Virus record (IMG/VR): IMGVR_UViG_2718218305_000010 | DNA length: 47,284 bases | Direction: 5' to 3' (one strand) | From: a virus | Taxonomy: Duplodnaviria > Heunggongvirae > Uroviricota > Caudoviricetes | Shown here: positions 42,001 to 45,000 of the stretch, piece after piece | Layout of the letters: the number at the start of each line of letters is the position of its first letter | Numbering within the stretch: position 1 is the stretch's first letter | Made by a program: the position numbers

Positions 42001-45000
42001 CACCTGGTGCTGCATGGCTTACCCCCTTGCTGACTGGTTTTACCTGTGCCCTGACGTGCTGCACGTGACGGGCAAATTTCTGCTCCCACTGAACCTGCGT
42101 GAAAACCTTCCCCTCCGCCATCCAGTAATCCCGGAATGCGGCAAGCTCAGCAGGTGTAAACTCAGGCTCAGGCAGAGCCATACCCCACAATGCAGCCCGC
42201 TGTCGAAAATCCAGCGACGGCCGCCAGACACCAGTCATCGGAAATTTCCCGATCGGTTCGCTCAGGCCATCCGGGTATTCAGGTTCTGCTGTCTGCAACG
42301 GCGCGCCATTCGACTCACTGGCTGGAGCACTCTCGCGCATGCGCGCGTTATGTGTGGGGTTTAATTCTTTATCTGTATCTGTATCTGTCGTGACTTGTCG
42401 TGACATATGCGTGACGCGTCGTGACTCATCGTGACAATCAGTGTTCTGCTCCCGCAGTCTTTCCCGCTCCCGCTGCGCTCTCTTGCGCTCTGCCGGGGAT
42501 TTTGCGGTTTGCGAAACATTACCGTTATCCTCCTTCATCACCTGGCGTTTTTCCCATCCGGAAATAAGATCGCCATCCAGAACTCGCCCCTGCATTGCAT
42601 GCAAAATTGAATCAATCACGTCTTCCGTCACATCAAGCGCACTTGCTAAATCTTCCGTCGTGACATCAATGTGACCACGTAGTGACTCGCCGTGACATTT
42701 CGTGACATTTCGTGACGCACTCACCAGAAGGTGGATATACACCGCCATCACTGTTGCGATTGGCTGTCCTGAGACCCTGGCAATGGTTCGCCATTTGGGA
42801 TCATTTGGCATGTCATGCCACAATCTGAGCCAGGCATTAGCCATACTCACCTCATCTGATACCGAACTTTACCCTCGAACATCCGGAAGAAATCCGGCAT
42901 GAATATTGTTGGTCAATGCACGACAACAGCATTACCAGGCTGACCCCCACTGTTAGTCAGGGTGCCCCAGGCGATCGCCGCTGCGACAAAATCATCCACA
43001 TCTTTCACCAGCCGATCCCTCCGTTCGACGATCTCACGGTAATATTCAGAGCTGTGACTGCGCATACGGGCCACCAGCAGAGGCGGCATTGCCTTTTCGA
43101 TCGCCGGTAACAGAGCCTGCATTTTTTCAACAGCATCAGGGGTGTCTTTATCCAGCCAACGGAAAATTTTCTGGGTATTACGAGCCAGGGCTTCCGGATG
43201 GCTGTCGTCGTACAGTTCCGGGAACGTCATCCCCAGTTCGAAATAAGTCCGGGCTATTTCAGCTGCAGGAACTTTCTCACCATCAGGATATGCCCAGGCA
43301 TTCATCGCCATGCGGATGTGCTCATGTTTGATTTTCATGAATCATTTGCCTCTTGATGCTTCGGGTATGATCGTTTTCGTCATTTGGTTGCTTCATCGAC
43401 ATATTCTGCGAATAACATGACGAGCGTCGTAAGTATGTCCAATCAACATCAGGACGAAGTTCTTCACACAGGACACCACCTTTTGTTGCTCGTTCAATCG
43501 CAGGACATCTCTCAGCAGGCAACTGACGTACACCTTTGATCCATTGATTTACGCTTGGAGGAGATACACCTAAAAGCCTAGCCATTGCTGATTGCCCACC
43601 GACAACAGCACAAGCTCGTTTGAATGAATAGTTATCTTTTTTCATCGAATGAACTCCAAAAAACACACAATAATATTAGGCTTAGCCTAATGCAATTGTC
43701 AATAGGCTATGCCTAACGCTTCGAGAGTAGGTATTGCCTAATGCGATGCGCATAGGAGACTATTAAGCAATGCTTAGTGGTAAAGACTTAGGCCGAGCGA
43801 TAGAGCAGGCCATTAACAAAAAAATTGCATCAGGAGCCGTCAAATCAAAGGCGGAAATCGCACGTCATTTCAAAGTCCAACCACCATCAATCCATGACTG
43901 GATTAAGAAAGGTTCGATAAGTAAAGACAAACTTCCAGAACTATGGCGTTTCTTTTCTGATGTGGTTGGTCCAGAGCATTGGGGGCTTAACGAATACCCC
44001 ATACCAACCCCATCCACTTCAGATACAAAAAGTGAACTTTTAGACATAAACAGCCTTTATCAAGCCGCCTCTGATGAAAAAAGAGCAATTGTGGCTTTCC
44101 TCTTATCTGGAAATGCTACGGAGCCTAGTTGGGTTGATCATGACGTTCGTGCCTACATTGCCGCAATGGAAATGAAGGTAGCTAACTATCTGAAAAATCA
44201 AGAATCAAAACGGAAAAGCCAGAACATCACCAAGACAGGAACTTAAACTTATATGGTCCGACGGGAAATTCCTAGTTCCCGTTAGTTAACTCCTACTACC
44301 TCTCCCACAAACCATCACCTATTAGGTCGCACCCAAATCATTAGGCGTAGCCTATTGACAAGCAATTAGGCATTTCCTATAGTTTTCCCATACCAACCCA
44401 TCCCGTCCCACACAATACAGGGCAATACCTAGAGTTACCCGGCAGTGGTCAGGGATTAAGTAGCCAGCCCGAGGCGTAAGAACATGACGGCAGGGTTCAA
44501 CTTTAACTATGCAGCAGGTTTTTGTTCCGCTACCCCGGCGTTAAGGGGATATGAGGTCAGCATGGATACTCTTGATCTTGGCAACAACGAATCTCTGGTG
44601 TGCGGCGTGTTTCCCAACCAGGACGGCACGTTCACCGCGATGACGTATACCAAAAGCAAAACGTTTAAAACCGAATCTGGCGCGCGTCGCTGGTTAGCAA
44701 GAAACTCTGACTAATGAAATCTGGTAATTAAGGAATCCTCCACGGGGGGAGAGTGGTGCACACGCGCCGGACACAAGCAAGCATCCGGCATGCTCTTTAA
44801 CAATCTGGATATCCATAACAGTAAAAATCTACAGATTGCCGTTCAGTTTTCTGGCCAACTCTTCAATAGATGGAGGTGATACGTAATCCGGATTTTTATT
44901 CATAAGAAACTGATTTTCACAGTACAGGCACCTGCTTTTATGAAAAAATTCATATTCTCTAACCGGGAATGGCTGAAGTATCGATACTATCTTTTGTCCA

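What the first reader, a model, noticed from the sequence alone, without database searches (positions are those of the whole stretch)
42387..42716. Two clusters of helically phased GTGAC iterons inside the O-like gene
Eleven copies of (T)CGTGAC at 10-11-bp spacing form two groups about 220 bp apart within the coding sequence, one flanked by an AT-rich stretch. This is the pattern expected for an origin embedded in the initiator gene, but with short single-turn repeats and two arrays rather than one.
Basis: partly seen in the sequence, partly recalled or inferred. Interest (0 to 1): 0.5.

Follow-up and report, generated by a model that had tools for sequence, protein, structure and literature searches.

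The report
Two-array iteron origin inside phage initiator gene
An E. coli O157:H7 prophage carries its probable replication origin inside the gene for its own replication-starting protein, as two rows of a 6-letter DNA word spaced one helical turn apart; the same layout recurs in hundreds of related, unstudied phage genes, so the DNA signal and the protein constrain each other's evolution.

Summary
Eleven GTCAC(G) cores lie on the sense strand of the 347-aa replication gene (window 41807-42850, minus strand). Six are at 42660-42716 and five at 42390-42435, all spaced 10-11 bp. The second group abuts the most AT-rich stretch of the gene.

The copies fall in all three reading frames. Synonymous-codon randomisation of the same protein gives about 2 copies, not 11.

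Across 23 homologous genes from gamma- and beta-proteobacteria (58-69% nt identity for 20 of the 22 relatives), codons inside the cores are frozen (Val GTC 23/23, His CAC 23/23, Gly GGT 23/23). The same residues elsewhere use all codons.

Of 52 related loci, 39 have two arrays at the same positions. Subfamilies use a different core (GTAACG, CGAACG, GCAACG), changed in both arrays together.

The protein is not a lambda O homologue. It has a DnaD-NTD-like winged-helix N-domain, a disordered linker that encodes array C plus the AT tract, and a DnaT-like C-domain. A lambda-P-like loader gene follows.

Best reading: an iteron origin embedded in a replisome-organizer gene. The principle is known (lambda, SPP1, TP901-1); the architecture is new. 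Binding and origin activity are inferred, not shown.

The parts
41807..42850 (-). Replisome-organizer / initiator gene (347-aa ORF from GTG; RefSeq starts it at 42844, MANAW..., 345 aa, 'DnaT-like ssDNA-binding domain-containing protein').
   Evidence: ORF list. Pfam DnaT domain aa 203-269, E=4.5e-17. PHROG 1408/3729 'replication initiation protein'. RefSeq annotation of a 100% identical O157:H7 copy.
42536..42844 (-). Coding region of the N-terminal winged-helix domain (about aa 3-105). Array N and the inverted copy lie inside it.
42660..42716 (-). Array N: six direct GTCAC(G) cores (+ strand 42712-16, 42702-06, 42692-96, 42682-86, 42671-75, 42660-64), spacing 10,10,10,11,11. They encode the H1-beta1 loop 'SRNVTKCHGESLRGHIDVT'. 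Relatives have four copies; the window has an exact 21-nt (2-copy, 7-codon) insertion.
   Evidence: positions, frames; frozen codons; 21-nt insertion; loop, pLDDT below 50 at residues 51-55.
42627..42631 (+). Single inverted copy of the core (gene strand GAT GTG ACG = D-V-T, just before the putative recognition helix), 33 nt after the last direct copy of array N.
   Evidence: The Val codon is GTG in 20/20 homologues with Val there. A GTAAC-type relative (L028) has GAC GTT ACa at the same place; this is one case only.
42390..42435 (-). Array C: five direct GTCACG cores (+ strand 42431-35, 42421-25, 42411-15, 42400-04, 42390-94), spacing 10,10,11,10. They encode 'CHDESRRVTHMSRQVT' in the predicted disordered linker. 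Proposed core initiator-binding site of the origin.
   Evidence: Frozen codons and conserved nucleotides under variable amino acids. pLDDT below 50 for residues 139-170. Array C is the more widely conserved array.
42359..42388 (-). AT-rich, purine-rich tract (ACAGAT)3 AAAGAATTAAAC directly after array C; candidate DNA-unwinding element. Also the mosaic recombination joint.
   Evidence: GC minimum 0.325. Highest-AT windows of the gene. The homologous AGATAAAGATAAAGAT tract has 60-83% AT even in genes of 60-69% GC. Megablast match boundaries fall at 42366-42385.
42334..42345 (.). Perfect 12-bp GC palindrome CGCGCATGCGCG just beyond the AT tract. Role unknown; it belongs to the C-terminal module.
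   Evidence: A similar GCGCGCGCGTGCGCG follows the same AT tract in Rac-SA53. Not evaluated further.
42044..42244 (-). Coding region of the DnaT-like ssDNA-binding domain (aa 203-269).
   Evidence: Pfam PF17948, E=4.5e-17. NCBIfam DnaT equivalog gives 91.8 bits, below its cutoff of 201.
41353..41814 (-). Lambda-P-family helicase-loader gene, overlapping the organizer stop by 8 nt (RefSeq start; the mechanical ORF extends to 42015).
   Evidence: Pfam PF06992, E=1.6e-16. PHROG 109 'P-like helicase loader'. BLASTP to lambda P, E=6e-7. RefSeq 'replication protein P'.
43673..43702 (-). pR-like sigma-70 promoter (TTGACA-18-TAATAT) upstream of the cro-like gene. Its transcription would run through the arrays.
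   Evidence: consensus match only.

Best explanation
The two arrays are binding sites (iterons) for the winged-helix N-terminal domain of the protein whose gene contains them. Array C together with the adjacent AT-rich (GATAAA/GATACA)n tract is the prophage's origin of replication, placed in the linker-coding part of the gene as in lambda.

Proposed sequence of events:
1. Transcription from the pR-like promoter makes the organizer and the P-like loader.
2. N-domains bind the asymmetric 6-bp cores as monomers on one face of the helix (10-11-bp spacing) and oligomerise along array C (3-5 sites) and array N (4-6 sites, plus one inverted site). The two arrays are possibly bridged through a loop of about 230 bp.
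3. The resulting distortion melts the adjacent AT tract.
4. The DnaT-like ssDNA-binding C-domain and the P-like loader bring host DnaB onto the opened DNA.

What is shown: the existence, phasing, frame-independence, synonymous-site conservation and subfamily co-variation of the sites; the AT tract; and the domain and gene context. What is inferred: binding by this protein, melting, helicase loading, and the accessory (looping or enhancer) role of array N.
For: - **Not an amino-acid repeat.** The copies use all three frames. There are 11 copies against 2.18 +/- 1.33 expected from the protein sequence.
- **Selection acts on the DNA.** In 23 genes (20 of the 22 relatives at 58-69% nt identity to the window, two at about 84%), core codons are fixed: V49 GTC 23/23, T50 ACG 23/23, G59 GGT 23/23, H60 CAC 23/23, V63 GTC 23/23, S46 TCA 22/23, S156 TCA 23/23, V159 GTC 23/23. 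Control invariant residues use mixed codons: V34 GTT 8/GTC 8/GTG 6/GTA 1; H12 CAT 14/CAC 9; S27 7/6/5/4; G88 11/7/5. At two columns the residue varies (TGT/GGT/CGT; GAG/GCG/GTG/GGG) while the core bases stay.
- **The architecture is conserved.** All 138 intra-array spacings are 10 or 11 bp. Of 52 loci, 39 have two arrays with the same core at the same gene positions, and most of the remaining 13 keep a phased repeat only at the array C position.
- **The core co-varies with the subfamily.** GTCACG, GTAACG, CGAACG(C) and GCAACG each change in both arrays together.
- **Only one constant local partner.** The only protein family shared by all 21 GTCAC-type loci within +/-3 kb is the organizer itself.
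- **An AT tract follows array C.** It is conserved even in 60-69% GC genes and is the GC minimum here.
- **The context fits.** The order is cro-like, cII-like, organizer, P-like loader. The N-domain is a winged helix resembling DnaD-NTD and the RepA_N initiator. The linker is predicted disordered.
- **The module boundary fits.** N-domain plus iterons travel together and recombine with other C-domains at the AT tract.
- **Precedents exist.** Lambda iterons lie in O. SPP1 G38P binds AB boxes plus a DUE inside gene 38 (PMC5737612). TP901-1 ORF13 and Tuc2009 Rep2009 bind direct repeats inside their own genes (PMC8965321).
Against: - There is no experimental evidence for binding, melting or origin activity for any member of this family. 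I found no paper on it.
- Because the sites lie inside the gene, co-variation with the N-domain cannot formally separate binding by its own product from binding by another factor.
- The distance between the arrays is not helically phased across relatives (last N copy to first C copy: 209-247 bp, one case of 340 bp). A rigid loop geometry is therefore not supported, and the role of array N stays open.
- Most distant relatives lack array N.
- DnaD's N-domain is chiefly an oligomerisation domain, so the winged-helix fold does not by itself prove sequence-specific DNA binding.
- No small plasmid uses this gene as its sole replicon.
Confidence: 0.75

Rival explanations
1. The arrays are regulatory sites rather than an origin. 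The protein, or another regulator, binds them to autoregulate or block transcription of its own gene, or to limit replication by titration or handcuffing, while initiation occurs elsewhere.
For: The arrays lie in the transcribed path from the pR-like promoter. Array N sits early in the gene, far from the AT tract. Two-array iteron systems with a control array are known in plasmids (general knowledge). The inter-array distance is not phased.
Against: Array C is always followed by a conserved AT-rich tract, which an operator would not need. Its position at the domain linker matches lambda ori. No other iteron cluster exists in the 47-kb window. A control role for array N is compatible with the main model rather than opposed to it.
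Confidence: 0.1
2. The sites are bound by a different factor, for example a host protein, a terminase/pac system or a partition protein, and merely happen to lie in this gene.
For: Embedded sites cannot be separated genetically from the gene by comparative analysis alone.
Against: The hosts span gamma- and beta-proteobacteria with 41-69% GC. No other local protein family is shared by the 21 loci. The core type switches with the N-domain subfamily. There are no DnaA boxes nearby.
Confidence: 0.06
3. The repeats are a by-product of a repetitive or strongly conserved peptide motif (NVT/RGH/DVT/ESR), or arise by chance, with no DNA-level function.
For: The encoded residues are invariant in the family, so some protein-level constraint on them is possible.
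Against: The copies use three reading frames. Synonymous randomisation never reached 11 copies in 20,000 trials. Synonymous positions are frozen, and core nucleotides are conserved under variable residues. The spacing is strictly 10-11 bp.
Confidence: 0.02
4. The element acts at the RNA level, with repeats in the mRNA bound by an RNA-binding protein or forming a structure that controls translation.
For: All direct copies are on the sense strand.
Against: The 10-11-nt period matches the DNA helical repeat. A conserved inverted copy exists. The adjacent AT tract and the origin-like context fit DNA. No RNA structure test was run.
Confidence: 0.02

Closest known systems
Bacteriophage lambda ori inside gene O (O/P replication module)
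   Same: The origin lies within the initiator gene, in the part that encodes the inter-domain linker (lambda iterons at O gene nt 349-433; here nt 416-461). Iterons are followed by an AT-rich, purine-rich tract on the sense strand. A P-family helicase loader gene follows. The region is transcribed from a pR-like promoter. N-domain plus iterons form an exchangeable specificity module.
   Different: There is no sequence similarity between the initiators and no hit to any lambda O family in the Pfam scan. Lambda has one array of four 18-bp dyad-symmetric iterons spaced 20-24 bp. Here there are two arrays of asymmetric 6-bp cores at single-turn spacing, one of them inside the DNA-binding-domain coding region. 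The C-domain is DnaT-like.
Gram-positive phage replisome organizers: SPP1 G38P/oriL, lactococcal TP901-1 ORF13, Tuc2009 Rep2009 (Pfam Phage_rep_org_N / PF09524)
   Same: A non-AAA+ organizer binds direct repeats located in its own gene next to an AT-rich DUE (PMC5737612; PMC8965321). SPP1 has a second, separate G38P-binding region, oriR. The N-domain here aligns end to end, though weakly, with Phage_rep_org_N (a homologue at E=0.12) and with PHROGs named 'replisome organizer' and 'DnaD-like helicase loader'. NCBI names close relatives 'phage replisome organizer'.
   Different: The match is below Pfam's threshold. The hosts are proteobacterial. The second array is 230 bp away inside the same gene rather than tens of kb away. 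The iterons are short and single-turn, and they use three reading frames. The C-terminal modules differ (DnaT-like).
SaPI (staphylococcal pathogenicity island) ori and Rep
   Same: Penta- or hexanucleotide iterons are read by a winged-helix domain, and they occur in two sets associated with an AT-rich region (PMC9371898).
   Different: SaPI iterons lie downstream of rep, flank the AT region on both sides and point in opposite directions. Rep is a self-loading helicase. Here both sets lie on one side of the AT tract, in direct orientation, inside the coding sequence, and the protein has no helicase domain.
Rac-type YdaU (DUF1376 + DnaT domain) replication proteins, e.g. phage Rac-SA53
   Same: The C-terminal DnaT-like half and downstream gene are about 88% identical at the DNA level. 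The AT tract (GATACA)n AAAGAATTAAAC and the GC palindrome are the same.
   Different: The N-domain is DUF1376, not this winged-helix family. There are no GTCAC iterons; a TGTTCAAACA/TGTTTGAACA inverted repeat precedes the AT tract instead.
E. coli primosomal protein DnaT
   Same: They share the DnaT ssDNA-binding three-helix domain (PF17948, E=4.5e-17).
   Different: The match scores 91.8 bits against the NCBIfam equivalog cutoff of 201. DnaT has no origin-binding N-domain and acts in PriA-dependent restart, not origin recognition.

Membership tests
Lambda O-type initiator and ori-lambda | Initiator homologous to lambda O (N-terminal Phage_rep_O domain) | tested here: not met
   The Pfam scan lists only the DnaT domain; the N-domain alone gives no Pfam hit even at E<=10. 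BLASTP against lambda O gives a best E of 3.4.
Lambda O-type initiator and ori-lambda | Four ~18-19-bp iterons with internal dyad symmetry, about two turns apart | tested here: not met
   Lambda: 18-bp sites spaced 20/24/23 bp. Here: asymmetric 6-bp cores spaced 10-11 bp in two arrays.
Lambda O-type initiator and ori-lambda | Iterons inside the initiator gene at the inter-domain linker, followed by an AT-rich region | tested here: met
   Array C lies at gene nt 416-461 in the predicted disordered linker. The AT tract is the GC minimum.
Lambda O-type initiator and ori-lambda | Downstream lambda-P-family helicase loader | tested here: met
   PF06992, E=1.6e-16. BLASTP to lambda P, E=6e-7.
Phage replisome organizer (Phage_rep_org_N; SPP1 G38P, TP901-1 ORF13 type) | N-terminal domain matches Pfam PF09681 above the gathering score | tested here: not met
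   The window N-domain gives no hit. A close homologue (L003) scores E=0.12 and 12.8 bits against a cutoff of 23.3, although it aligns 5-122 to 1-118 of 121. PHROG 'replisome organizer' E=3e-4 and 'DnaD-like helicase loader' E=2.4e-8 suggest remote homology.
Phage replisome organizer (Phage_rep_org_N; SPP1 G38P, TP901-1 ORF13 type) | Winged-helix, DnaD-NTD-like fold of the N-domain | tested here: met
Phage replisome organizer (Phage_rep_org_N; SPP1 G38P, TP901-1 ORF13 type) | Direct repeats inside its own gene next to an AT-rich DUE | tested here: met
Phage replisome organizer (Phage_rep_org_N; SPP1 G38P, TP901-1 ORF13 type) | Protein binds those repeats and the region supports replication | not testable with these tools
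   Needs EMSA or footprinting and a plasmid replication assay.
Primosomal protein DnaT | DnaT ssDNA-binding domain present | tested here: met
   PF17948 at aa 203-269, E=4.5e-17.
Primosomal protein DnaT | Full-length equivalog of DnaT (NCBIfam NF002770) | tested here: not met
   91.8 bits against a cutoff of 201, covering only profile positions 80-156.
Iteron-type theta origin (general) | Multiple direct repeats, helically phased, conserved as DNA rather than as protein code | tested here: met
   All 138 spacings are 10 or 11 bp. Synonymous sites are frozen. 11 copies against 2.2 expected.
Iteron-type theta origin (general) | Iteron sequence co-varies with the cognate initiator | tested here: met
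   GTCACG, GTAACG, CGAACG and GCAACG subfamilies each change both arrays together. Caveat: the sites are embedded in the gene.
Iteron-type theta origin (general) | DnaA boxes adjacent to the iterons (many plasmid origins) | tested here: not met
   No TTWTNCACA within the replication region; the only two in the window are at 17780 and 20937. Lambda also lacks this requirement.

The most novel reading that the evidence does not exclude
The nucleotides of array N, and of the inverted copy, would be both the initiator's binding sites and the code for the peptide segments that read those sites: the H1-beta1 loop 'SRNVT..RGH.DVT' and the D-V-T at the start of the recognition helix. A change of iteron core would then rewrite site and reader at once. 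That would explain how both arrays and the protein switched together between the GTCACG, CGAACG, GTAACG and GCAACG types. The loop residues are among the columns that best separate the types (R47, V49, H60, T64). However, non-iteron columns also separate them (the 110-118 indel, Q126 to W/Y), so the idea is not required by the data.
Probability: 0.12. Interest if true: 0.85.

Novelty: new variant of a known kind. Interest (0 to 1): 0.55.

Why it matters
- **A testable origin for a large, unstudied family.** The family of proteobacterial prophage replication modules has 1875 cluster representatives. Matches to this gene occur in 1260 of 5426 complete E. coli genomes, including O157:H7 prophages. 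Neither RefSeq nor the phage records inspected annotate an origin here.
- **A clean natural case of overlapping codes.** A DNA signal with a 10.5-bp period is written through a 3-nt code. It fixes 'invariant' residues and codons of the protein from Escherichia to Pseudothauera, and it expands in 21-bp quanta (2 iterons = 7 codons).
- **A caution for other analyses.** Conservation-based inference of functional residues, and dN/dS analyses, can be driven by embedded cis-elements.
- **A route to experiments.** The subfamily core switches give ready-made specificity-swap experiments.
- **A rationale for mosaic exchange.** The shared AT-tract joint explains how replication modules are exchanged among lambdoid prophages.

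Tried and rejected
- **Literature.** Searches for a prior description (iterons/lambdoid/DnaT, ydaU, Eru non-lambdoid Stx phages, replisome organizer plus iterons, oriJ, GTCAC plus iterons) found nothing on this family. The oriJ search was swamped by an author name. The TP901-1 and r1t primary papers are not held.
- **Plasmids.** The collection has 11 records with this N-domain, none a small replicon, so there is no natural 'replication assay'.
- **A third array (SPP1 oriR-like).** None found in the window.
- **DnaA boxes.** None nearby.
- **Strict helical phasing between the arrays.** Not conserved, so a rigid-loop model was dropped.
- **Iteron-encoded loop as the only type-discriminating protein segment.** Rejected, because the 110-118 indel and Q126 also discriminate.
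- **Synonymous co-variation of the inverted copy with core type.** Seen in L028 (GTT) but not in L026, which has mixed cores. It is reported as one case only.
- **Tandem Repeats Finder.** It detects only 2.6 copies of array N, so standard repeat finders under-report this feature.
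Full report
**1. Observation**

The region lies in a 347-aa ORF on the minus strand (41807-42850). Read on the gene's sense strand, GTCAC occurs 11 times in the first 461 nt:
- Array N: gene nt 135, 145, 155, 165, 176, 187 (+ strand 42660-42716).
- Array C: gene nt 416, 426, 436, 447, 457 (+ strand 42390-42435).

Nine of the copies read GTCACG. Spacing is 10 or 11 bp throughout.

Nine of the window's 37 CGTGAC hexamers lie in this 330-bp stretch. For the whole window, 19.7 are expected and no shuffle reached 37. These are the only places in the window with three or more GTGAC copies on this strand within 60 bp; the opposite orientation has one such place, at 17540, without the 9-12-bp spacing. 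Directly after array C comes (ACAGAT)3AAAGAATTAAAC, the GC minimum of the region (0.325) and the most AT-rich stretch of the gene.

**2. Not a peptide repeat**

The copies occupy reading frames 2,0,1,2,1,0 and 1,2,0,2,0. They are encoded by different residue pairs: A-S-R, N-V-T, C-H, E-S-L, R-G-H, D-V-T, among others. Resampling synonymous codons for the same protein gives 2.18 +/- 1.33 GTCAC (maximum 8 in 20,000 trials), against 11 observed.

**3. What the gene is**

- The C-terminal part carries a DnaT ssDNA-binding domain (PF17948, aa 203-269, E=4.5e-17). It falls well below the DnaT equivalog cutoff.
- PHROGs assign the protein to 'replication initiation protein' families. The N-terminal 165 aa match PHROGs named 'DnaD-like helicase loader' and 'replisome organizer' more weakly.
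- The gene follows cro-like (YdaS) and cII-like (YdaT) genes. These face a RacR-type repressor gene on the opposite strand.
- A lambda-P-family loader gene follows it.
- A pR-like promoter lies upstream.
- The gene is 100% identical to a locus in many E. coli O157:H7 chromosomes. Matches occur in 1260 of 5426 complete E. coli genomes, and RefSeq annotates no origin there.
- The protein has no similarity to lambda O. 'O-like' is therefore positional and functional, not homology.
- An AlphaFold model of aa 1-170 (75-sequence alignment) gives a confident core. Its layout is H1 (31-47), a loop (48-60), beta1, H2 (65-72), H3 (76-86) and a beta-hairpin wing.
- Residues 139-170 of the model are disordered.

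Array N therefore encodes the H1-beta1 loop of the DNA-binding domain. Array C and the AT tract encode the disordered linker.

**4. Comparative evidence**

The N-domain is widespread and unusually conserved:
- 1130 90%-identity clusters in the word-indexed search, at 60-68% identity from Escherichia to Pseudomonas, Azotobacter, Bordetella and Chromobacterium.
- 1875 representatives by exhaustive phmmer.

A scan of GTDB genomes returned 55 loci; 52 of them were analysed further.

*Positions and spacing.* In 23 GTCAC-type genes (gene GC 41-69%), the cores sit at the same gene positions. The usual pattern is 4 + 3-5 copies. All 138 intra-array spacings are 10 or 11 bp.

*Codon test.* Codons inside the cores are fixed:
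- V49 GTC 23/23, T50 ACG 23/23, G59 GGT 23/23, H60 CAC 23/23.
- V63 GTC 23/23, T64 ACG 23/23, S46 TCA 22/23, A45 GCG 21/23.
- H146 CAC 21/21, S156 TCA 23/23, V159 GTC 23/23.

Invariant residues elsewhere use mixed codons: V34 8/8/6/1, V43 11/6/3/2, H12 14/9, S27 7/6/5/4, G88 11/7/5, T22 7/6/5/5. At two array-C columns the residue varies (C/G/R and E/A/V/G), but the codons keep the core bases (NGT; NNG). This is selection on DNA.

*Inverted copy.* A single inverted copy (GAC GTG ACa, D-V-T) lies 33 nt after array N. Its Val codon is GTG in 20 of 20 sequences.

*Copy-number expansion.* The window's extra copies arise from an exact 21-nt insertion in array N and a 7-codon expansion in array C. 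Each adds two helical turns and seven codons.

*AT tract.* After array C, the tract AGATAAAGATAAAGAT is nearly invariant. It stays 60-83% AT even in genes of 60-69% GC.

**5. Subfamilies**

Other branches of the family carry a different core at the same two positions:
- GTAACG: Sphingomonas, Marinobacter, Enterobacter.
- CGAACG(C): Janthinobacterium, Collimonas, Terracidiphilus and others.
- GCAACG: Burkholderia.

The spacing is the same 10-11 bp. Of 52 loci, 39 have two arrays sharing one core. Most of the remaining 13, generally the more distant relatives, keep a phased repeat only at the array C position. Array C plus the AT tract therefore looks like the core element, and array N like a widely conserved accessory.

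Among 21 GTCAC-type loci, the only protein family common to all within +/-3 kb is the organizer itself.

**6. Modularity**

Megablast splits the gene at 42366-42385, inside the AT tract:
- The C-terminal half plus P is 88% identical to Rac-SA53 'ydaU'.
- The N-terminal half plus the cII-like gene is 82% identical to phages 640R1, Evi and Tritos.

Rac-SA53 has a DUF1376 N-domain and no GTCAC iterons, but the same AT tract and GC palindrome. In 640R1 and Tritos, the same N-domain plus arrays is fused to a different C-terminus and no loader gene follows. N-domain plus iterons is thus one exchangeable specificity module, as in lambdoid O genes.

**7. Mechanism**

The best-supported reading is an iteron origin embedded in a replisome-organizer gene. 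Monomeric winged-helix domains would bind asymmetric 6-bp cores on one face of the DNA and oligomerise. They would destabilise the adjacent AT tract, where the DnaT-like domain and the P-like loader deliver DnaB.

Site existence, DNA-level selection, co-variation and context are shown. Binding, melting and loading are inferred.

Array N may bridge to array C, enhance occupancy, or serve in control. The inter-array distance is not helically phased (209-247 bp, one case of 340 bp), so I do not commit to a fixed loop.

**8. Comparison with what is known**

- Lambda: one array of four 18-bp dyad-symmetric iterons inside O, followed by an AT-rich tract.
- SPP1 G38P: AB boxes plus a DUE inside gene 38, and a second site, oriR (PMC5737612).
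- TP901-1 and Tuc2009: direct repeats inside the organizer gene (PMC8965321).
- SaPIs: penta- or hexanucleotide iterons read by a winged helix, in two sets around an AT region (PMC9371898).

The present element combines features of these but is not a member of the lambda O family. It only weakly resembles Phage_rep_org_N.

Three features were not described in any paper I could find: two direct arrays on the same side of the AT tract; single-turn 6-bp cores threaded through three reading frames of the initiator's own DNA-binding domain; and concerted core switching. The searches were made, and the held library is incomplete.

**9. Verdict**

It is a new variant of a known kind. Interest is moderate to good, because of the dual-coding constraint and the breadth of an unstudied origin family.

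Noticed in passing
window 42366-42385: A mosaic recombination joint lies exactly in the AT-rich (GATACA)n tract. To its left the DNA matches Rac-SA53-type ydaU C-terminus plus P (88%). To its right it matches the 640R1/Evi/Tritos-type N-domain plus cII-like gene (82%). The shared tract may act as a microhomology site for module exchange.
   Followed up: partly
L002 (Rac-SA53) 3000-4070, gene nt ~395-470: The DUF1376-type 'ydaU' has no GTCAC iterons. An inverted repeat TGTTCAAACA...TGTTTGAACA sits just upstream of the same AT tract and GC palindrome. This may be a different origin type for the DUF1376 N-domain.
   Followed up: no
L001 1888-2958 and L003 1888-2958: In phages 640R1 and Tritos, the same N-domain plus arrays is fused to a different C-terminus ending in IPPGFRG. 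It is followed directly by LygF, with no P/DnaC-type loader gene. Many family members share this C-terminal motif.
   Followed up: no
window 20233-20765: A 162-bp tandem repeat, 3.3 copies at 95% identity (54-aa units), lies inside an 859-aa ORF on the minus strand (19773-22352). It explains the TCGTGAC hits at 20262, 20424 and 20586.
   Followed up: partly
window 42334-42345: A perfect 12-bp palindrome CGCGCATGCGCG follows the AT tract. It is conserved in imperfect form in Rac-SA53. Its position recalls the palindrome to the right of lambda's AT-rich region, but it was not tested.
   Followed up: no
L013 (Erwinia phyllosphaerae) gene nt 159-181 and 411-451: A variant array has cores at 5-bp spacing (GTCACGTCACGTCAC followed by an inverted GTGAC), unlike the 10-11-bp rule elsewhere.
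   Followed up: no
window 43322-44246: The immunity region is of the Rac type (RacR-like repressor, YdaS-like HTH, YdaT-like cII analogue) rather than lambda cI/cro/cII. The repressor ORF (43770-44246) has no Pfam or PHROG hit here, but RefSeq names it RacR.
   Followed up: partly
window 25111-25126: Two CGTGAC copies lie 10 bp apart on the minus strand, far from the replication region. This is probably chance, as it is only a pair with no third copy.
   Followed up: partly
window 41807-41814: In the RefSeq annotation the organizer and P-like genes overlap by 8 nt, which suggests translational coupling. The mechanical ORF list extends the P ORF 200 nt further upstream.
   Followed up: no
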